The translations under genes were made by a program, and so were the position numbers. A stretch of 64,000 nucleotides of DNA from a virus. Lineage: Duplodnaviria; Caudoviricetes. Within the stretch, counting starts at the first letter, position 1, and each line of letters starts with the position of its first letter. Shown here one piece after another: positions 3,043 through 50,658 of the stretch. Where the stretch lies: the IMG/VR virus record IMGVR_UViG_3300031555_003048, positions 2,314 to 66,313 of that record. The stretch is one strand, 5' to 3'. The notes under the pieces were generated by a model, which was not told the origin of the DNA, did no database searches, and saw only the letters and a list, made by a program, of their open reading frames with translations.

Positions 3043-4387
3043 TAAGATTTTATTATCTAAAGATTTTACAATAATTAAAAATAATGATATAACTGTAGAT
3101 TTTTTTGACCCACCTTACGATACATATTTTAATTTTATATATAACCATTATTTACAATATGGTAATGTGCCAGATAAAGAAACCTTTTTATCTCGATTTG
3201 ATGACTTTGATTTAGTTCAAGTTACAGAATCAGATAATGCTCTTGTAGATATGTTGTTTGAAGAGCACTTGTACAATAAAATGGTTACAGTTATACAGAC
3301 TGTTTCCAATAAAGCACAAGATAATTCAAATGATGCTGTTGAATATTTAAAATCAGAATTACCTAATTTAGTAGTAAGAACACACAAATCTTTTACAAGT
3401 ATTATTAAACAAGCTAATGAACGTTTAAAAGAAGTGGAAGAAAAACAAAATTCTGAAAAGTCTTGGTTTATACCTACAGGATTCCCTGAATTAGATAATG
3501 TAGTAAACGGTTGGTCAAGAGGTGAAGAATTTGTAGTTATATTTGCCCGTACCGGACAAGGTAAATCTTGGGTATTAGTTAAAGCAGCAACTCACGCATG
3601 GGAAATAGGATATAATGTTGGTTATATATCTCCAGAAATGTCCGCTAATAGAATTGGTTATCGTTTTGATACAAACTATAATCATTTTTCTAACTCAGAA
3701 CTATTAACGGGTAGGGTTGATATTCAAAAATATAGAGATTATATTTTATCCTTGGAACAAAAAGAAAATGAATTTGCTGTAGCTACTCCTGCTGATTTTA
3801 ATAAAAGAATCACGGTTAGTAAATTAAGAAATTTTGTTATTGATAATAAATTAGATATGTTATGTATTGACGGTATTACTTATCTTTCTGATGAACGTGC
3901 TAATAGTAGAGATAATAAAAGTACAGCATTAACAAATATTAGTGAAGATTTAATGCTATTATCTGTAGAACTTCAAATACCTATATTGGTAGTTGTTCAG
4001 TCCAATAGAGAAGGTGCCCGTAATGATGAAGAAAGAGGTACACCTGAACTGGAAAACATTAGAGATTCTGATGGAATATCCCATAATGCAACTAAGGTAA
4101 TTTCTTTAAGACAGACTGGACCTGGTTTAGAAATGGGTATTAAGAAAAATAGAGACGGTTCGACTAATGTTCGTTTAGTTTATACTTGGGATATTGATAC
4201 TGGTATCTATACTTATATTCCTGGTGAAAATGATGTCAATGGAATTAGAGTTAGTTCACATACAAGTTCTAATGAAAATACTACTAATAGAAGAAATTCT
4301 GTTAATAGAAATAGTAATAATAATAATTCTTTAGCAAATATTCAACCTGAACGTAAAGTATTTGCCGATGTAACAAGTCCATTCTAA
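3020..4387 (+). CDS. dnaB: Replicative DnaB-like helicase
   Basis: WFIPTGFPELD, FARTGQGKS, LCIDGI, VVVQSNR, DSDGISHNA, KKNRDG; ATG 3020 follows GGAGG. Confidence 0.9.
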   Translation: MVQLQILNKILLSKDFTIIKNNDITVDFFDPPYDTYFNFIYNHYLQYGNVPDKETFLSRFDDFDLVQVTESDNALVDMLFEEHLYNKMVTVIQTVSNKAQDNSNDAVEYLKSELPNLVVRTHKSFTSIIKQANERLKEVEEKQNSEKSWFIPTGFPELDNVVNGWSRGEEFVVIFARTGQGKSWVLVKAATHAWEIGYNVGYISPEMSANRIGYRFDTNYNHFSNSELLTGRVDIQKYRDYILSLEQKENEFAVATPADFNKRITVSKLRNFVIDNKLDMLCIDGITYLSDERANSRDNKSTALTNISEDLMLLSVELQIPILVVVQSNREGARNDEERGTPELENIRDSDGISHNATKVISLRQTGPGLEMGIKKNRDGSTNVRLVYTWDIDTGIYTYIPGENDVNGIRVSSHTSSNENTTNRRNSVNRNSNNNNSLANIQPERKVFADVTSPF

Positions 4388-37145: not shown

Positions 37146-38042
37146 GTGGTTTTGATGGGTGAATTAATTACTACTGATGCTAATACTACGGTTAATAGTA
37201 ATATAGATTATGATTTTTTAGGTACAGAATACTATTATGCTAATTATAATCCTTCTGGTGGTTATAAAGCCTGTAAAACTGTTGTGTATCATTTGTTTTT
37301 AAATACGGATAGATATCATCAAAGTTTAACACCAGATATACCTCAAGTGGATATAAATGAACAATTGTTATTTATACATCTGTATAACGGGGATGAACAA
37401 TTTAACATTGTAAATGCTGATAGTATTAAAATTACTTTTGAATGTAATGGTAAAACAGTTGAGGGAGATCCAGAACGATTAGATTTATATAATCCATATA
37501 GAGGAACATTTACTTATATAATGAATAAAAATGAAACTCAATATGTTGGATTAAACACCATGACTATTACAGTAACTATAGGTTCTGAAACAGCTAATTT
37601 TGTTACTTGTTATAATGTGGTAGCTAATGTTACTATTGGTAATATAGATGGTACTACATATGAAGGAATGACATTACAAGATTTAATAGATTTAATAAAA
37701 AATCATATTGAAGATAAAACAATTCATTGTGATGATTATAAAAACTTAAACATATATAATGCGTTTATAACTGTTAATACATATGAAGATTTAAACACAA
37801 TAGATAAATCTTTGTTAATAGATGGAAAAATGTTTAGAGTTAATAATCCTACTGTTACTTACTATTATTATGATACACAATCTAACACGTTTAAACCTTT
37901 ATTGTTTGATAATGTTGTTTTTGATGATACATCTTTATTATCAAATTATTTAGCACAAACTAAATATTATTATGAACAAGCCCAAGATATCTTATCACAA
38001 GTACAACAGATTAAACAAGAAATGGAAGAGCTTAGAGGTTAG
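37146..38042 (+). CDS. Hypothetical protein, possible BppU/baseplate-like N-terminal domain
   Basis: Beta-rich N-terminal half (LFIHLYNG...ITFE...GTFTY...TITVTIG). Confidence 0.35.
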   Translation: MVLMGELITTDANTTVNSNIDYDFLGTEYYYANYNPSGGYKACKTVVYHLFLNTDRYHQSLTPDIPQVDINEQLLFIHLYNGDEQFNIVNADSIKITFECNGKTVEGDPERLDLYNPYRGTFTYIMNKNETQYVGLNTMTITVTIGSETANFVTCYNVVANVTIGNIDGTTYEGMTLQDLIDLIKNHIEDKTIHCDDYKNLNIYNAFITVNTYEDLNTIDKSLLIDGKMFRVNNPTVTYYYYDTQSNTFKPLLFDNVVFDDTSLLSNYLAQTKYYYEQAQDILSQVQQIKQEMEELRG

Positions 38043-40781: not shown

Positions 40782-40855
40782 GAGAAAATAGCTTAATTTT
40801 GTAGAGCATTGGTTTTTAAGAATCACAGGTCTTAGTTCAATTCTAAGTTTTCTCC
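40782..40855 (+). pseudogene. Degenerate tRNA-like element
   Basis: gagaaaa/ttttctc acceptor, D arm and T arm cttag-ttcaatt-ctaag present; no canonical 7-nt anticodon loop; no CCA. Confidence 0.55.
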
Positions 40856-41169: not shown

Positions 41170-41606
41170 GCGGCTGTGGCGGAACAGGCAGACGCAAGGG
41201 ACTTCGTTATAAAGGCAAGGTTTTATTCAATGACAGTTTATGAAGGTTATACAGCTAAATACTGAAAATGAAACTGTGGACCACATGGATGGTAATTTTT
41301 CTAACAATAGTTTTGTTAGAGAAATGAACGAATACTTGCCCAGCAGGAGCCTGGTAGAAGAAATTCTATCAGTGGAGGACGCTAATTCGGGGAACTCTTT
41401 GGTCGAGAATCCCGAGCAAGATTAATTATTTTAATCGTGTGTAGAGACCTTACACGTCCCACCTAAGTCAGATATATGATCTGATATGGTGAAGAGCAAG
41501 TCCAGACTACAACACACAATTTATTGTGTGGCTATCTAAAGATAGAGTAGTAAGAAAATCCCTCGGTGGAAACATCATACGGGTTCGATTCCCGTCAGCC
41601 GCACCA
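41170..41606 (+). tRNA. tRNA-Leu(TAA) split by a group I intron (exons 41170-41204 and 41555-41606)
   Basis: Joined exons give gcggctg...aggga-ct taa aa-tccct, long variable arm, GTTCGA, cagccgc-A-CCA. Confidence 0.92.
41205..41554 (+). mobile_element. Group I self-splicing intron (350 nt) in the anticodon
   Basis: P-like AATTCGGGGAA, Q-like AATCCCGAGC, R-like GTGTAGAGAC, S-like AAGAGCAAGTCCAGAC; terminal G; inserted after U34. Confidence 0.9.
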
Positions 41607-41815
41607 TATCATCATAAGAGGGTCGGTGTAAATCCGATTAAATGCTTTCCCACCAAAATCCCGACGGGAAACACCCTTGAAAAACTTTTTAATGATGCTT
41701 TGGGATATGCATCATAAATAACGTTGGAAGTTTACTGGTGTTTTTAAGGCGTTATTATGTGGTTTTAATTGGCACAAATGGTTTCCACACAAAAAACCTT
41801 TTTCGTGCCACATAA

Positions 41816-43384: not shown

Positions 43385-43642
43385 GTAAGGAAAAGCGTTT
43401 GGTTCTATTTAAGACAGCATACTTTTATATTTAATTGGAATTAATAGAACATCAAGCCCGTTGTCAGATAGCTTTTCTTTATTCCAAAAAATTTACAACG
43501 AGTGAAAGCCTAACCATTTAGAATAAGTATTTGCTTGACCTAAAAATCAAGAGAACATAGAGTAGCAACTATGTGTGGCGGAAAGTAGTTGTAAGTTTTT
43601 TATAAATGAAACTAATGTCTGACCCCCATTAGTTTCATTTAT

Positions 43643-43763
43643 GTAAGCATAGACAAAAGAGAATAACATTAGGTTTATTCTGGTAAAGTCAGCCCATTTA
43701 TCAGGGTGCGTAAGATGGTTGCAAACATCTTATTTGTTGGTTCGAGTCCAACTGCTTACGCCA
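43643..43763 (+). ncRNA. Expanded tRNA-Cys(GCA)-like RNA (121 nt) with two inserted hairpins
   Basis: gtaagca/tgcttac acceptor + G + CCA; T arm gttgg-ttcgagt-ccaac; aagatg-gttgcaaa-catctt; extra hairpins in the D loop and after the D arm. Confidence 0.7.
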
Positions 43764-43846
43764 TACCATTCCAATGTTAATCCTTGATTGGGATGGGAAA
43801 TGCACGTTTGATGAAGCTAATGTCTGTCACCATTAGCTTCGTTTAT

Positions 43847-43923
43847 CGGGATGTATCTCAGTTTGGTAGAGTGCTTGCTTTGGGAGCAAGATGCCGCAGG
43901 TTCAAGTCCTGTCATCCCGACCA
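43847..43923 (+). tRNA. tRNA-Pro(TGG)
   Basis: cgggatg/catcccg, cttgc-tt tgg ga-gcaag, CCA. Confidence 0.94.
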
Positions 43924-44092
43924 AATGCCCTCCGAGGTTTGCGGATTGACGGTGAAAGCTCATTCAGTAGCACTACATATTTCCAGATGAGTCTGTATGA
44001 AAGTAGGTTAGACTGATATAGAACTCCCTACATTCTATATGTTTTCGGACAATATGAGAAAGGCACTATTCATTTTAAAGGTTATGATTTAA

Positions 44093-44599
44093 GTGAGGAA
44101 GGATAAGAAATTTACAAGAGGAAATGGTGATATTGTTTCTTATAAAGAAATGATTGATATTATATGTAATTATATAATTAAAGATATAAATGCTGAATAT
44201 GAATTAACTGTCGGTACAGATAGTCAAACTCATTCTAATACTAAAATGGTAGAAGTTATTGCTTTACATAATGTGGGTAATGGTGGAATATTTTTCTATT
44301 ATATTGAATATGTAAGACGAATGACTAATGTAAAAGATAAGATAATAGAAGAAACACAAAGAAGTTTAAATAATGCTAAAGGTCTTATAGACAATATTCA
44401 GTTTAAACTAATTGACAATGATATTGATATAGAAAATTTAAATTTACGTCTTCAGATTCATTGTGATGTTGGAAATAAAGGTAAGTCTAAATCTTTAATT
44501 AAACAGATTACAAATTGGGTTAATGCTTTAGGATATGATTGTACTATAAAACCAGATAGCTATACAGCTTCAGGAATAGCAAATAAAATTTCAAAATAG
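44093..44599 (+). CDS. RNase H-like YkuK (DUF458) family protein
   Basis: LTVGTDSQ, GNGGIFFY, IHCDVG, IKPDSYTAS. Confidence 0.85.
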   Translation: MRKDKKFTRGNGDIVSYKEMIDIICNYIIKDINAEYELTVGTDSQTHSNTKMVEVIALHNVGNGGIFFYYIEYVRRMTNVKDKIIEETQRSLNNAKGLIDNIQFKLIDNDIDIENLNLRLQIHCDVGNKGKSKSLIKQITNWVNALGYDCTIKPDSYTASGIANKISK

Positions 44600-45636: not shown

Positions 45637-45885
45637 GGTGAACAAGTGAAAGTACACGAAATAGTTGTCCCGTGTAATCAGTACGAAGAAAATTATAGTA
45701 TTAGATGTAACGCAACTATAATCTCTACAAATACTTATAAATCAATATAAGAAATCTTATAAAGACTATTTCCTTTTTCATAGTGTTTGATTTGGAAATT
45801 CTTGTGAAAATCTACTCTCATTTGGTATAACACTCCCAAGGCTTAAATTCCGGTGGTGCGTCACCGTACATATCTATAATTGCTT

Positions 45886-47157
45886 TTAAAGTGCAGATTT
45901 TATAGATTTATTATATTCTTGTTGTCCATAATTTCTTAAATTAATAGCAGCATTTATATCTCTATCAATAACATTTCCACATTGATCACATTTATAAATT
46001 CTATCATTTAATTTAAGATTATGTTTAATAGAACCACAACAAGAACAGGTTTTACTCGAAGGATAAAATCTATCAACAATATAGAGAGGTATATTTTGTT
46101 CTTCACATTTATAAGTAAAATAAGTTCTTATAGTATTAAAAGATTGATTTTGTATATGTTTTGACAAATGTTTATTTTTCATCATTCCACTTACATTTAA
46201 ATCTTCAATAGCTATGAAAATTGGATTTCTTTTCACAATAGAAGATGTAAATTTATGATTATAGTCTTTTCTTATATTTTTAAGTTGTGTTTCAATTTTA
46301 TATATTTGTTTTTGAAGTTTTACTATATTTTGAGTTTTAACAAATTTAGTACCTACTTTATTAGCTTCAAATTTTCTTGAAAGTTTTCTTTGTAATCTTA
46401 TTTTTCTTTTTTCAAGTTTCTTTATTCTATTAGTTTTATTAATGTTTTTATATTTTTCTCCAGTAGATAAAATAGCTAAATCTTTAATACCTAAATCAAT
46501 ACCAATAGGTTCTGATTTTGATTGTTCTTTATTTACTATGTCAACATCTATAGCAGCAACAAAATACCATTTATTATCACTAAATTTAACTTTAGCATTA
46601 TAAATCTTAAAATCTTTACCGGATTGTCCTTGTGGAAATGGATTATGTTTACCTATTTTTACCCAACCAATTTTAGCAATAAATATTTTATCTCCTTTAA
46701 ATTGAACGTGCATACAATCTTGATGAAACCCTTCATCACAATTAAGTTTTTTCTTAAATTTAGGATGTCCATTTCTATCATAAATTGTTAAAGGATTACC
46801 GATTCTTTTACTATGAGCTATCTGTTTTGCAGAATAAGGCTTATAATTAGGTTGTTTTACTTTCTTAAAATAATTGCTATAAGCAGTTTCTAAATCTTTA
46901 ATAGCTTGTTTAGTGATATCACAACTAACACTCTTTAGCCACTTAAAGCTGTTATCATTATTTTTTAAATTTACAATTAAATGATGTAACTCTTTAAAAG
47001 GAATTAACTTACCATTTTCTTTATAAGATTTCATTTGTAAATCTAAAGCCCAATTATATATGAAACGTCTTGTACCGGCAAATTGCCAAAATAGTTGTTC
47101 TTGTTCTTTAGTAGGTATTAAAAGAACTTTTTTACCCCTCTTAAAAGTATTACTCAT
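45886..47157 (-). CDS. tnpB: RNA-guided endonuclease TnpB
   Basis: HTH start RFIYNWAL; RuvC IGIDLG, IAIEDL, DRDINAA; Zn finger CSCCG...CDQCG. Confidence 0.93.
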   Translation of the reverse strand: MSNTFKRGKKVLLIPTKEQEQLFWQFAGTRRFIYNWALDLQMKSYKENGKLIPFKELHHLIVNLKNNDNSFKWLKSVSCDITKQAIKDLETAYSNYFKKVKQPNYKPYSAKQIAHSKRIGNPLTIYDRNGHPKFKKKLNCDEGFHQDCMHVQFKGDKIFIAKIGWVKIGKHNPFPQGQSGKDFKIYNAKVKFSDNKWYFVAAIDVDIVNKEQSKSEPIGIDLGIKDLAILSTGEKYKNINKTNRIKKLEKRKIRLQRKLSRKFEANKVGTKFVKTQNIVKLQKQIYKIETQLKNIRKDYNHKFTSSIVKRNPIFIAIEDLNVSGMMKNKHLSKHIQNQSFNTIRTYFTYKCEEQNIPLYIVDRFYPSSKTCSCCGSIKHNLKLNDRIYKCDQCGNVIDRDINAAINLRNYGQQEYNKSIKSAL

Positions 47158-47782
47158 TATTATCATCACTTTCACTTTGTAATAATTCTTCCATAATACA
47201 TTTTGTTTTAGTTGCACGTTTTCCGTGTAACTTACAACTAAATACAGTTATAATTTGCATTAAATCTTCCATAAGTTCTTGCTCAATAGTTTTATCTTCA
47301 CTATCTAATATAACAATTTGAGTATTATGTAAATCGGCAAATTGTTTTATTAAATCAAAACCAAATCGAACTAATCTGTCCTTATATAAAACATAAATTG
47401 TATTTACTTTATTACTACAAATAAGTTCAAGTAATGTAGTTAAGCCTTTTTTAGTATAATTAATCCCACTACCTATGTCTTGAATTATTTTATATGGTTG
47501 ATTTAATGATTTTAAGAATAATTCAATATTATCAACTTGACGTTTTAAATCATCTTTTTGTTTATTGGTAGAAACTCTACAATAGCCAATATTAATTCTA
47601 TTATCAAATACTTTGTACTGTTCCATAAAAGTATTTAATTGTTCTAAAGAATAATAGCGATAACCATTACTTCGTTTTTGTGCCGGAATTAATAGTTTTG
47701 ACCTTTCCCAATTTCGTAATGTTTGTGCAGAAACACCTAACATAGTAGCAGCTTTATGAATACTTAAATAAGTTATTGACAT
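47150..47782 (-). CDS. tnpA: IS607 transposase (MerR-HTH + serine recombinase)
   Basis: AATMLGVSAQTLRNWE, IGYCRVST..QKDDLKRQ, DIGSGIN, YKDRLVRFGF. Confidence 0.95.
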   Translation of the reverse strand: MSITYLSIHKAATMLGVSAQTLRNWERSKLLIPAQKRSNGYRYYSLEQLNTFMEQYKVFDNRINIGYCRVSTNKQKDDLKRQVDNIELFLKSLNQPYKIIQDIGSGINYTKKGLTTLLELICSNKVNTIYVLYKDRLVRFGFDLIKQFADLHNTQIVILDSEDKTIEQELMEDLMQIITVFSCKLHGKRATKTKCIMEELLQSESDDNNE

Positions 47783-49605: not shown

Positions 49606-50142
49606 ATGAAAGTTCTTATAGTTATAGATATGCAGAATGATTTTATAGACGGAGTGCTTGGTACGAGGGAAGCTCAAGCAATCGTGCCTCTTGCCTGTGA
49701 GAAGATAAAGAACTTTAAGGGAGCAATACTCTTAACCGCTGATACTCACAATGAGAACTATCTTAATACACAGGAAGGAAAATTTCTTCCTGTTCCTCAT
49801 TGTATAAGAGATACAATTGGTTATGATATTAACGATGATATATATGCGGCTATATGCAAAAAGCCTCATTTAAAAATACATAAAAATACTTTTGGAACCT
49901 TCACTCTGCCAAAATGGATAAAAGAAATAGCTCATGATTCTGGAGAAGAGATTGAAGCTATTGAGCTTATTGGAGTTTGCACGGATATATGTGTAATCAA
50001 TAATGCTCTTATCCTTAAAGCGGCGTTTCCCGAAGTACCAATTATGGTTGATGCGACTTGCTGTGCTGGCGTAACACCCGATCTGCATGAGGCTGCTCTT
50101 AAAGTAATGAAGAGCTGTCAGATAATTGTGAAGGAGGGCTAA
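49606..50142 (+). CDS. pncA: Isochorismatase-family cysteine hydrolase (nicotinamidase-like)
   Basis: LIVIDMQNDF, TADTH, PHC, KNTFG, GVCTDICV. Confidence 0.85.
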   Translation: MKVLIVIDMQNDFIDGVLGTREAQAIVPLACEKIKNFKGAILLTADTHNENYLNTQEGKFLPVPHCIRDTIGYDINDDIYAAICKKPHLKIHKNTFGTFTLPKWIKEIAHDSGEEIEAIELIGVCTDICVINNALILKAAFPEVPIMVDATCCAGVTPDLHEAALKVMKSCQIIVKEG

Positions 50143-50364: not shown

Positions 50365-50658
50365 ATGGCTCTGAATATATGGCTTGATGATATAAGACCT
50401 GCTCCTTCTGGATATATATGGGTTAAGTCAGTCAACCAAGCTCAAAAAGTTATTTTAGGAGCCGAGAATCTTGGGGAAGATATACTTGAGCTTAATCTTG
50501 ATCATGATCTTGGTGATTATGCTAAGGACGGTGGCGATGGTATTAAGTTAATACTGTGGCTTGCAGAAACTGAGAGACATTATCCGATTGAACTCCATAC
50601 TCTTAACCCGGTTGGGCGTGAAAATATGCAAGCAATTATAGATCGGTATTGGCCGTAA
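50365..50658 (+). CDS. Cyclic-phosphate-processing receiver-domain-like protein
   Basis: IWLDDIRPAP, LDHDLG, G..LILWL, LHTLNPVGRENM. Confidence 0.75.
   Translation: MALNIWLDDIRPAPSGYIWVKSVNQAQKVILGAENLGEDILELNLDHDLGDYAKDGGDGIKLILWLAETERHYPIELHTLNPVGRENMQAIIDRYWP

What the first reader, a model, noticed from the sequence alone, without database searches (positions are those of the whole stretch)
43643..43763. 121-nt tRNA-Cys-like RNA with two extra hairpins
Seen: perfect acceptor (gtaagca/tgcttac), G73-CCA and canonical T arm. The D stem gac/gtc encloses an inserted hairpin agaataa-N8-ttattct (43660-43681) before the conserved GGTAAA. A second hairpin gccc-N8-gggt (43692-43707) sits between the D and anticodon arms. 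The anticodon loop is 8 nt (gttgcaaa) around GCA. Established: Cys tRNAs normally have U73, and standard tRNAs lack these insertions. Inference: a non-canonical tRNA-like RNA (decoy for anticodon nucleases, synthetase or RNA-repair substrate, or precursor needing unusual processing). tRNAscan would probably miss it.
Basis: partly seen in the sequence, partly recalled or inferred. Interest (0 to 1): 0.78.

Follow-up and report, generated by a model that had tools for sequence, protein, structure and literature searches.

The report
Five-arm tRNA-shaped gene in phage
A rumen/gut phage carries a real but oddly built 121-base tRNA-shaped gene, with an extra hairpin in its D-loop and a long side arm whose loop copies the cysteine anticodon loop; it belongs to a small phage-only family and probably does not work as an ordinary tRNA.

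Summary
Positions 43643-43763 (+) fold exactly as described: 7-bp acceptor, G73-CCA, canonical T arm, D stem enclosing a 7-bp hairpin, and two further hairpins that each have an 8-nt loop. ARAGORN misses the gene, and Rfam's tRNA model scores it 26.5 bits, below the cut-off of 29.

It sits in a phage tRNA array. It is one half of a 204-nt cassette that close relatives lack. A copy about 97% identical lies in a different upstream context in another metagenome.

Two distant phage relatives (L111, L125) share the order acceptor, D arm, hairpin 1, hairpin 2 (loop GUUGCAAA), T arm. Their hairpin 2 stems carry compensatory changes. None of 33 pattern hits in 596 Gb of prokaryote genomes is tRNA-like.

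Covariance-model alignments, ARAGORN after in-silico removal of the D hairpin, and the 2+2-nt connectors all place the GCA-bearing hairpin in the variable-arm position (class II-like). That leaves the GCCC hairpin in the anticodon position.

Function is unproven. I favour a non-decoding tRNA mimic that displays a tRNA-Cys-like loop. A decoder with an 8-nt loop (possibly AUA) is the main rival. The scan has noted comparable five-arm phage tRNAs on other DNA. I class this as a new variant of a known kind.

The parts
43602..43642 (+). 16-bp leader hairpin (loop TCTGACCCC) that abuts position +1 of the tRNA-like gene
   Evidence: Sequence and fold of 43385-43930. It is conserved in relatives L103/L105, where it directly precedes tRNA-Pro.
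43643..43763 (+). The 121-nt five-arm tRNA-shaped gene, including the encoded G73-CCA
   Evidence: In run X6, contig homology starts exactly at 43643.
43643..43649 (+). Acceptor stem 5' strand GTAAGCA. It pairs 7/7 with 43753-43759. U8 and A9 follow at 43650-51.
43652..43690 (+). D arm: 3-bp stem GAC/GTC with A13·A22, A14, and G18 G19 within GGTAAA (43682-87)
   Evidence: The Rfam alignment places UAG..AA and AGUC as the D arm.
43660..43681 (+). Extra hairpin inside the D-loop (7 bp AGAATAA/TTATTCT, loop CATTAGGT), inserted before G18 G19
   Evidence: It is unchanged in the X6 variant. Removing it in silico makes ARAGORN call a tRNA with a long variable arm.
43692..43707 (+). Hairpin H1 in the anticodon position: 4 bp GCCC/GGGT and an 8-nt loop ATTTATCA (A + UUUAUCA)
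   Evidence: All three substitutions of the X6 variant lie here or next to it: 43692 G>T, 43702 C>T, 43709 C>T.
43710..43733 (+). Hairpin H2 in the variable-arm position: 8 bp and an 8-nt loop GTTGCAAA (G + the tRNA-Cys anticodon-loop sequence UUGCAAA; UUGCAA is a palindrome). Flanked by GC (43708-09) and TT (43734-35).
   Evidence: Compensatory pairs against L111, L125 and EA1.
43736..43752 (+). T arm GTTGG-TTCGAGT-CCAAC
43753..43763 (+). Acceptor 3' strand TGCTTAC, discriminator G73, encoded CCA
   Evidence: (in register with the other tRNAs' CCA)
43764..43846 (+). 83-nt spacer with a 10-bp hairpin (43766-96) and a second, diverged copy of the leader hairpin (43810-43). Together with the gene it forms the 204-nt indel (43643-43846), bounded by direct TTTAT repeats (43638-42 and 43842-46).
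   Evidence: Alignment with L103/L105; X6 contig 5 joins 43642 directly to tRNA-Pro; fold

Best explanation
This is a real, selectively maintained, tRNA-shaped RNA gene with five arms, carried as a cassette in a phage tRNA array.

Architecture. It is class II-like:
- a normal 7-bp acceptor stem, T arm and G73-CCA;
- a D arm whose loop carries an extra 7-bp hairpin just before G18 G19;
- a short arm in the anticodon position (H1: 4 bp, 8-nt loop A+UUUAUCA);
- a long variable arm (H2: 8 bp, 8-nt loop G+UUGCAAA) joined by 2 nt on each side.

Inferred maturation. It is co-transcribed with the neighbouring tRNAs and matured like them (RNase P at 43643, encoded CCA), folding into an L-shape with two protruding arms.

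Inferred function, which is the weakest step. It is not an ordinary decoder. It is a tRNA mimic whose conserved variable-arm hairpin displays a look-alike of the tRNA-Cys anticodon loop. The loop contains the palindrome UUGCAA, so it can pair with itself or with the anticodon loop of tRNA-Cys. The partner would be a tRNA-Cys-specific enzyme or nuclease, or tRNA-Cys itself. This would fit the phage-host conflict over tRNAs.

The confidence given covers structure and mechanism together. The structural part alone I put at about 0.75, and the mimic mechanism at about 0.3.
For: Structure:
- The fold is robust.
- Core tRNA nucleotides are present: U8, A14, G18 G19, A21, the TTCGAGT loop and C61.

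Cassette and selection:
- Relatives L103/L105 have leader hairpin-TTTAT-tRNA-Pro, whereas the window has 204 extra nt.
- Run X6 holds the gene from exactly 43643 onward behind different upstream DNA. It has 3 substitutions inside the gene, all in or beside H1, and none in the acceptor, D hairpin, H2 or T arm.

H2 as variable arm:
- Rfam tRNA alignments of the candidate and of L111 (30.5 bits, above the cut-off) place it there.
- Model R1 alignments to tRNA-Gln and to L125 agree.
- ARAGORN calls a long-variable-arm tRNA once the D hairpin is removed.
- Connectors are 2+2 nt in both the candidate and L125.

Family:
- L111:7292-7423(-) and L125:4874-4999(-) have unrelated acceptor and D sequences but the same arm order and the same H2 loop.
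- In H2, 3 of 8 pairs change on both sides. The covariation score is 0.58 against 0.20 in shuffles (3 of 500 reach it), and slid controls give at most 0.15.
- 0 of 33 pattern hits in genome contigs are tRNA-like, and there is no match in cultured phages.

Against decoding as the family function: the arm in the anticodon position has loops of 8, 34 and 35 nt in the three members.

Context: tRNA array, cREC (PF20274), YkuK-like RNase H-fold protein and isochorismatase nearby. cREC is proposed to process 2',3'-cyclic phosphate RNA ends in phage RNA repair (PMC7824862). Phage tRNAs are known to counter anticodon nucleases (PMC10264068, PMC11464382, PMC11555353; listed, abstracts only).
Against: - There is no expression, processing or charging data.
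- Only three family members (plus one near-identical variant) were found. L111 and L125 were retrieved with a pattern that fixed the H2 loop, so the loop's invariance is partly imposed by the search.
- L111 has a weak T stem (3 of 5 pairs), and neither L111 nor L125 encodes CCA, so they may not share the candidate's function.
- No nuclease or enzyme partner is identified.
- H1 has only 4 bp, and two registers compete. The X6 change G43692T weakens one register and strengthens the other.
- For the candidate alone, a class I reading with a 5-nt variable loop is geometrically possible.
- An 8-nt anticodon loop does not by itself exclude decoding; yeast mt-tRNA-Thr(UAG) has one (PMC7609411).
Confidence: 0.45

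Rival explanations
1. It is a working decoder tRNA with a class II body. H1 is the anticodon arm with an enlarged 8-nt loop, read as an extra A followed by U32-U33-UAU-C37-A38. It supplies the AUA (Ile) codon, or reads UAA through UUA. The long arm and G73 might direct charging, for example by SerRS, or the GCA-like loop might recruit a synthetase.
For: - AUA is the most used A-ending codon for which the array has no tRNA: 498 of 13,675 codons. The other phage tRNAs (Lys UUU, Glu UUC, Leu UAA, Thr UGU, Gln UUG, Pro UGG, Leu UAG) all read A-ending codons.
- The 7 nt UUUAUCA of the loop carry U33 and A38.
- Natural 8-nt anticodon loops can decode (PMC7609411).
- SerRS recognises a long variable arm plus G73 (PMC7609411).
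- The X6 variant keeps UUUAU.
- Class II-shaped tRNAs for Ile(UAU), Cys, Gln and Trp occur in related phage arrays.
Against: - Position 37 is a pyrimidine (C in the window, U in X6), which is very unusual for a decoder and incompatible with t6A37.
- tRNA-Ile has A73 (my knowledge of IleRS identity), whereas this gene has G73.
- The stem has only 4 bp.
- Serine at AUA, or read-through of UAA, would be harmful. UAA ends 61 of 77 long ORFs, and there is no sign of stop recoding.
- Family members L111 and L125 have 34-35-nt loops in this arm.
Confidence: 0.25
2. One reading: a class I tRNA-Cys(GCA) in which H2 is the anticodon arm (8-nt loop, or a 7-nt loop with a bulged G), and the D-loop hairpin and H1 are two insertions. 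It decodes UGU/UGC or serves as a tRNA-Cys decoy.
For: - The H2 loop is G + UUGCAAA, the full canonical tRNA-Cys anticodon-loop signature (U33, GCA, A37, A38).
- If only the inner 5 bp pair, the candidate has a 5-nt variable loop TATTT.
- A13·A22 resembles tRNA-Cys (my knowledge of E. coli tRNA-Cys).
- BLAST finds weak similarity (86% over 35 nt, E = 0.3) from the loop to the T arm with a Cys-like unit in Enterococcus phages.
Against: - G73 instead of U73, the main CysRS determinant (established knowledge; PMC9976931 was listed but not read).
- The outer H2 pairs covary (columns 3/22 and 5/20), so the helix is 6-8 bp and only 2 nt remain before the T stem.
- L125 and L111 leave 0-2 nt, which is impossible for a class I core.
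- Both covariance models and ARAGORN prefer H1 as the anticodon arm.
Confidence: 0.12
3. It is a decaying or hitch-hiking pseudo-tRNA: a tRNA gene (Gln/Cys-type body) damaged by hairpin insertions, with no function of its own.
For: - It is absent from the closest relatives, so it is dispensable.
- It scores below Rfam's threshold.
- The anticodon-position arm is aberrant.
- L111 has a degraded T stem, and L111 and L125 lack CCA.
- Phage arrays in these samples contain many irregular tRNA-like genes.
Against: - All 34 predicted base pairs are standard pairs and the core nucleotides are intact.
- The second copy, in another context, has changes only in or near H1.
- H2 is kept by compensatory changes on otherwise unrelated tRNA bodies.
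- The insertions sit at the two structurally tolerated sites, the D-loop alpha region and the variable region.
Confidence: 0.12
4. It is a precursor that needs unusual processing: the hairpins are removed, or the RNA is cut and re-ligated, to give a standard-size tRNA.
For: - Related phage loci carry tRNA genes with 45-65-nt inserts after the anticodon, some shaped like tRNA minihelices ending in ACCA.
- An RNA-repair-type gene (cREC) lies nearby.
- A group I intron-like insert splits tRNA-Leu(UAA) at 41171-41607.
Against: - No known bacterial mechanism removes 16-24-nt hairpins from D-loops or junctions.
- The hairpins carry no ribozyme or bulge-helix-bulge signature, and Rfam finds nothing.
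- Removing any pair of hairpins in silico still leaves a 6- or 8-nt loop.
Confidence: 0.06

Closest known systems
Class II (long variable arm) bacterial tRNAs, especially tRNA-Ser and tRNA-Sec
   Same: 7/5 acceptor/T helices, a 3-bp D stem, a stem-loop between the anticodon arm and the T arm joined by 2+2 nt, and G73 as in tRNA-Ser/Sec (SerRS identity elements: PMC7609411).
   Different: - The variable arm is longer (8 bp) and has an 8-nt loop with a conserved sequence.
- The D-loop holds a 22-nt hairpin.
- The anticodon arm has 4 bp and an 8-nt loop with no Ser or Sec anticodon.
- It is not detected by ARAGORN and falls below Rfam's cut-off.
Canonical bacterial tRNA-Cys(GCA)
   Same: The loop sequence UUGCAAA, a Cys/Gln-type D arm (GxC AA.. 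GGUAA GxC) and an A13·A22 mismatch.
   Different: - G73 instead of U73.
- The GCA loop has 8 nt, sits on an 8-bp helix and lies in the variable-arm position.
- There are two additional helices.
Natural and engineered tRNAs with 8-nt anticodon loops (yeast mt-tRNA-Thr(UAG), frameshift suppressors) and aptamer-tagged or allo-tRNAs
   Same: An enlarged anticodon loop, and extra hairpins tolerated on a tRNA body (PMC7609411; PMC7590224 and PMC5389517 were listed, abstracts only).
   Different: Allo-tRNAs have 8/4 or 9/3 acceptor/T helices, whereas this gene is 7/5. No decoding has been shown here, and here both extra loops are 8 nt.
Bacterial and phage Y RNA-like YrlA and other tRNA mimics (tmRNA tRNA-like domain)
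   Same: A tRNA-like D/T elbow on a non-decoding RNA encoded by phages. An Enterococcus phage YrlA-like RNA also has a hairpin with the loop GUUGCAAA (PMC4201824).
   Different: YrlA has a closed acceptor-like stem and a Ro-binding helix formed by its 5' and 3' ends. The candidate has an open acceptor stem with GCCA and gives no YrlA or tmRNA hit in Rfam.
Anticodon-loop-variant phage tRNAs that evade tRNA-targeting defences (T5 tRNA-Lys against PARIS; mycobacteriophage tRNAs)
   Same: Encoded in a phage tRNA array, with altered anticodon-loop features and RNA-conflict genes nearby (PMC10264068, PMC11464382, PMC11555353, abstracts only).
   Different: Those are standard cloverleaf tRNAs that still decode. 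Here the body has five arms, and decoding is doubtful.

Membership tests
Canonical tRNA (Rfam RF00005) | 7-bp acceptor stem, 5-bp T stem with a T-psi-C loop, and D-loop G18 G19 | tested here: met
   7/7 and 5/5 pairs, TTCGAGT loop, GG at 43682-83.
Canonical tRNA (Rfam RF00005) | Score at or above the curated gathering threshold (29 bits), and detection by a tRNA finder | tested here: not met
   26.5 bits. ARAGORN does not call it at default settings.
Canonical tRNA (Rfam RF00005) | 5-bp anticodon stem with a 7-nt loop (U33, purine at 37) | tested here: not met
   H1 has 4 bp, an 8-nt loop and C37. H2 has 8 bp and an 8-nt loop.
Class II tRNA (Leu/Ser/Tyr type) | A stem-loop variable arm between the anticodon and T arms, joined by about 2+2 nt | tested here: met
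   GC-H2-TT. The Rfam alignment puts H2 in the variable region. ARAGORN calls a 99-nt long-arm tRNA once the D hairpin is removed.
tRNA-Ser | G73 plus a long variable arm (SerRS identity) and a Ser anticodon | tested here: inconclusive
   G73 and the long arm are present, but neither loop holds a Ser anticodon. Serylation cannot be tested with these tools.
tRNA-Cys | U73 discriminator | tested here: not met
   G at 43760.
tRNA-Cys | GCA anticodon in a 7-nt loop of the arm stacked under the D stem | tested here: not met
   GCA lies in an 8-nt loop on the hairpin next to the T stem, which aligns to the variable region.
Allo-tRNA | 8/4 or 9/3 acceptor/T-stem configuration | tested here: not met
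   The configuration is 7/5.
YrlA / Y RNA-like (RF02553) | tRNA-like module with a capped acceptor-like stem, plus a Ro-binding helix formed by the two ends | tested here: not met
   No YrlA hit at E<=10 on 43560-43850. The acceptor stem is open and ends in GCCA.
tmRNA tRNA-like domain | Acceptor/T arm with G·U at 3·70, no anticodon arm, and an mRNA-like domain | tested here: not met
   ARAGORN (which includes tmRNA) and Rfam give no tmRNA call here. The 3·70 pair is A-U.
Proposed phage family 'H2-arm tRNA-like RNAs' (candidate, L111, L125) | Order acceptor, D arm, H1, H2 (loop GUUGCAAA), T arm, with the H2 stem kept by compensatory changes | tested here: met
   The loop's invariance is partly forced by the search pattern.

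The most novel reading that the evidence does not exclude
Phages have evolved a portable module: an 8-nt-loop hairpin that copies the tRNA-Cys anticodon loop (palindromic UUGCAA). They graft it onto the variable-arm position of unrelated tRNA bodies (Gln/Cys-like here, Leu-like in L125) and perhaps onto YrlA-like RNAs. The resulting five-arm RNA would act in trans, by kissing-loop pairing with host tRNA-Cys or with itself, or by trapping a tRNA-Cys-specific nuclease or enzyme. That would be a new class of tRNA-scaffolded anti-host or anti-defence RNA.
Probability: 0.2. Interest if true: 0.85.

Novelty: new variant of a known kind. Interest (0 to 1): 0.6.

Why it matters
Phage tRNA arrays are usually read as codon supplements or as spare parts against anticodon nucleases, and annotation pipelines drop anything that is not a cloverleaf.

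This gene shows that a tRNA body can carry two extra helical arms, in the D-loop and in the variable region, and still be kept intact and moved between phages as a unit. One arm bears a conserved anticodon-loop look-alike on otherwise unrelated bodies.

If it is charged and decodes, it widens the known structural limits of a working tRNA, with five arms and 8-nt loops. If it is a mimic, it would be a new kind of small phage RNA in the conflict over host tRNAs.

Either way it is a concrete, testable 121-nt object. It also suggests that phage tRNA counts from standard tools are underestimates.

Tried and rejected
**Searches that found no homolog**
- An exact 25-mer of the 3' end found nothing in viral contigs.
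- Related-loci searches with the proteins at 44093-44599 and 37146-38042 found nothing in viral contigs.
- 70 loci sharing the phrog_1491 protein hold no homolog by blastn, nhmmer or model R1. R1 matches only ordinary tRNAs, best tRNA-Gln, plus an armless tRNA-like gene at L003:2697-2771 whose homology stays ambiguous.
- The pattern on the H1 loop gave one chance hit in a coding region.
- The T-loop variant GTTCAA gave 6 chance hits.
- The genome contigs pattern gave 33 chance hits, none tRNA-like.
- There were no blastn matches of L111 or L125 in cultured phages.

**Searches that found other things**
- The pattern GGTAAAG..TTGCAAA..GGTTCGA found two other odd tRNA-like families (L074 group, L073 group). 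They are not homologs of this gene.

**Dead ends and uninformative steps**
- My script for 'long tRNA-like' genes mostly returned ordinary tRNAs plus duplicated 3' ends.
- The MAFFT alignment of the three full-length members was not structural, so no family covariance model was built.
- L125 does not fold into the cloverleaf by free energy alone (z = -0.7) and has no Rfam tRNA hit.
- The promoter/terminator scan was uninformative: 5 promoter-like sites against 7.4 expected, and 0 terminators.
- The genome search 'relatives' is not available for virus records.
- The YrlA-like RNAs of Enterococcus phages are at least 95% identical, so they cannot test conservation of the GUUGCAAA hairpin.

**Readings tested and dropped**
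- Stop-codon recoding: extensions under TAG or TGA read-through are only adjacent genes in the same frame.
- Expression: no RNA holder is listed among the sequencing runs. The contigs laid say nothing about transcription.
- DNA for the two ENA contigs encoding the identical YkuK-like protein could not be fetched.
- T-box induction by an uncharged Cys mimic was considered and set aside. G73 and the D-loop arm at the elbow fit poorly, by inference only.

Full report
**1. What is in the sequence**

The window is most of a 66.3-kb IMG/VR virus record. It has 27% G+C, uses the standard code and is densely coded on the + strand.

RNAfold gives the five-way cloverleaf as both minimum-energy and centroid structure: -34.6 kcal/mol, z = -3.6, and 0 of 200 shuffles fold as well. 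The same fold survives when 546 nt of context are folded.

ARAGORN finds 11 tRNAs in the window but not this gene. Rfam's tRNA model reaches 26.5 bits against a gathering score of 29. No ORF overlaps the gene. Its GCCA end is in register with the encoded CCA of the other tRNAs.

**2. It is a discrete, mobile unit under selection**

ENA contigs L103, L105 and L106 come from a close relative whose YkuK-like neighbour protein is 80% identical. They have the same tRNA-Gln, a 262-nt spacer and a leader hairpin, and then TTTAT followed directly by tRNA-Pro.

The window has 204 extra bases at this point, 43643-43846. They comprise the 121-nt gene plus an 83-nt spacer that ends in a second, diverged copy of the leader hairpin. 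The insertion is bounded by direct TTTAT repeats.

I laid public contigs on the stretch. In run X6, one contig joins 43642 straight to tRNA-Pro. Another contig carries the gene from exactly 43643 onward behind unrelated upstream DNA.

That second copy has three substitutions inside the gene: 43692 G>T, 43702 C>T and 43709 C>T. All lie in or beside hairpin H1. None is in the acceptor stem, the D-loop hairpin, H2 or the T arm. This pattern argues against plain decay.

**3. Relatives elsewhere**

No close homolog exists in the phage collections searched. Patterns that fixed the H2 loop plus the T loop returned chance hits and two tRNA-like genes:
- L111:7292-7423(-), from a metagenome contig that also holds a 19-tRNA array;
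- L125:4874-4999(-), from a small phage contig that encodes a portal protein and a terminase.

Their acceptor and D-arm sequences are unrelated to the candidate's, and L125's D arm is Leu-like. The order of arms is nevertheless the same: acceptor, D arm, hairpin H1, hairpin H2 with loop GUUGCAAA, T arm. H1 there has 5-8 bp and a 34-35-nt loop.

The H2 stems differ by compensatory changes. The candidate has GUAAGAUG/CAUCUUAU and L111 has GUGAUAUG/CAUAUCAU. On a four-row alignment, 3 of 8 pairs change on both sides. The covariation score is 0.58 against 0.20 in shuffles (3 of 500 reach it), and slid controls give at most 0.15.

The same pattern scanned over 596 Gb of prokaryote genomes gave 33 hits, none with a T arm or an acceptor stem. 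The tRNA-like hits are therefore not chance, and the family looks phage-specific.

One caveat applies. The loop was fixed by the search, so its invariance is partly imposed. What is independent is its association with the five-arm layout and the covarying stem.

**4. Which hairpin is which**

Five points favour the opposite assignment.

(i) Rfam's tRNA model aligns H1 to the anticodon arm and puts H2 into the variable region. It does this both for the candidate and for L111, which passes the threshold at 30.5 bits.

(ii) My single-sequence model R1 matches ordinary tRNA-Gln genes best, with H1 aligned on their anticodon arm. It also aligns L125 arm for arm.

(iii) When the D-loop hairpin is removed in silico, ARAGORN calls a 99-nt tRNA with a long variable arm and a 4-letter 'anticodon' in H1.

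(iv) H2 is flanked by 2 nt on each side (GC/TT here, GA/AT in L125), as class II variable arms are. Its outer pairs covary, so the helix is 6-8 bp. A class I reading then has no variable loop left, and in L111 and L125 it fails outright.

(v) Under this reading the two additions, the D-loop alpha region and the variable region, are the two places where tRNA structure tolerates extra length.

G73 also contradicts Cys identity.

Both extra loops have the same form: one purine followed by a 7-nt anticodon-loop-like string. H1 has A+UUUAUCA and H2 has G+UUGCAAA.

**5. What it does**

Nothing here shows function. My commitments are as follows.

The RNA is most likely transcribed with the array and matured like a tRNA. 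This is inferred from the intact acceptor/T minihelix, the encoded CCA and the exact 5' boundary of homology.

Across the family, the arm in the anticodon position is the variable part (8-, 34- and 35-nt loops), and H2 is the conserved part. I therefore favour a non-decoding tRNA mimic whose variable arm displays a tRNA-Cys anticodon-loop look-alike.

UUGCAA is a palindrome. The loop could therefore kiss itself or the anticodon loop of tRNA-Cys, or occupy a protein that reads that loop.

The neighbourhood fits a conflict over RNA: a tRNA array, cREC (PF20274), a YkuK-like RNase H-fold protein and an isochorismatase (cREC is interpreted in PMC7824862). Phage tRNAs that defeat anticodon nucleases are documented.

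The main rival is a true decoder. AUA is the most used A-ending codon that lacks a phage tRNA (498 of 13,675 codons), and UUUAUCA contains U33-UAU. Against this stand C/U at position 37, G73, the 4-bp stem and the long loops in L111 and L125.

**6. Comparison and novelty**

The gene fails the tests for:
- a canonical tRNA (score, finder detection, anticodon arm);
- tRNA-Cys (U73, position of the GCA loop);
- allo-tRNA (it is 7/5);
- YrlA and tmRNA.

It meets the class II layout.

I found no paper describing this design. A 2023 survey notes that IMG/VR holds undescribed tRNA-like candidates (PMC10690425).

This scan's own earlier notes on other DNA mention phage tRNAs with a D-loop arm, class II-shaped tRNAs for class I amino acids, and an Ile(UAU) tRNA with a second anticodon-like arm. 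These are unchecked leads, not support. I did see class II-shaped Cys, Gln, Trp and Ile tRNAs myself in L111 and L003.

I rate the candidate a new variant of a known kind, with interest 0.6.

Noticed in passing
window 41171-41607 (+): A tRNA-Leu(UAA) appears to be split after U34 by a roughly 350-nt group I-like insert. The acceptor is GCGGCTG/CAGCCGC-A-CCA and the anticodon stem AGGGA/TCCCT. Rfam sees only the 3' end, as a tmRNA-like fragment.
   Followed up: partly
window 40782-40855 (+): A tRNA with a 6-nt anticodon loop (ARAGORN 'tRNA-???', anticodon 'ta') that scores 50 bits with Rfam's tRNA model. It is another irregular member of the array.
   Followed up: partly
window 43602-43642 and 43810-43843 (+): Long, perfect 'leader' hairpins with the loop TCTG(A/T)C.. 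end 0-3 nt before the 5' ends of the tRNA-like gene and of tRNA-Pro. They look like the recombination points at which tRNA cassettes are exchanged.
   Followed up: partly
window 44093-44599, 49606-50142, 50365-50658 (+): A YkuK/DUF458 RNase H-like protein, an isochorismatase-family protein and a cREC (cyclic-phosphate-processing receiver, PF20274) protein flank the tRNA array. This suggests an RNA-repair and NAD-conflict gene set.
   Followed up: partly
window 45770-47782 (-): An IS607-type element (serine recombinase TnpA and TnpB) with a RAGATH-18 RNA (68.6 bits) has inserted inside the tRNA region.
   Followed up: no
L027:7850-7988, L028:7554-7699, L120:248-371, L117:3654-3775: Phage tRNA genes (Gln UUG, CUA and others) carry 45-65-nt inserts just after the anticodon. 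In L027 and L028 the insert is itself a tRNA-like minihelix with a 7-bp stem and a T arm; L027's ends in ACCA. They are too short to be group I introns, and I know of no described mechanism.
   Followed up: partly
L111:422-510, 972-1058, 3165-3253 (-); L003:2476-2565 (+): Class II-shaped tRNAs (long variable arm) for Cys, Trp, Ile(UAU) and Gln occur in rumen/gut phage tRNA arrays.
   Followed up: partly
L127 (Enterococcus phage EA1) 232-470 and 1400-1880: Unannotated tandem tRNA-like units with a capped acceptor stem match Rfam YrlA at 28-46 bits, below the cut-off of 69. The 232-470 unit is at least 95% identical across 29 of 31 Enterococcus phage records (conservation of 1400-1880 was not tested). 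It contains the hairpin CAGG-GUUGCAAA-CCUG.
   Followed up: partly
L074, L077 and 18 further loci; L073, L076 and 7 further loci: Two more irregular tRNA-like gene families occur in gut phage contigs. One is near-identical in 20 contigs and has a 15-nt loop in the anticodon position. The other is Cys-like (U73, GCA) with inserts in the acceptor strand and after the D arm.
   Followed up: partly
L003:2697-2771 (+): A 75-nt tRNA-like gene next to tRNA-Glu has a 7-bp acceptor stem, the same T stem as the candidate (GTTGG/CCAAC), G73, one hairpin and TTGGTAAAT, but no anticodon arm and no CCA.
   Followed up: partly
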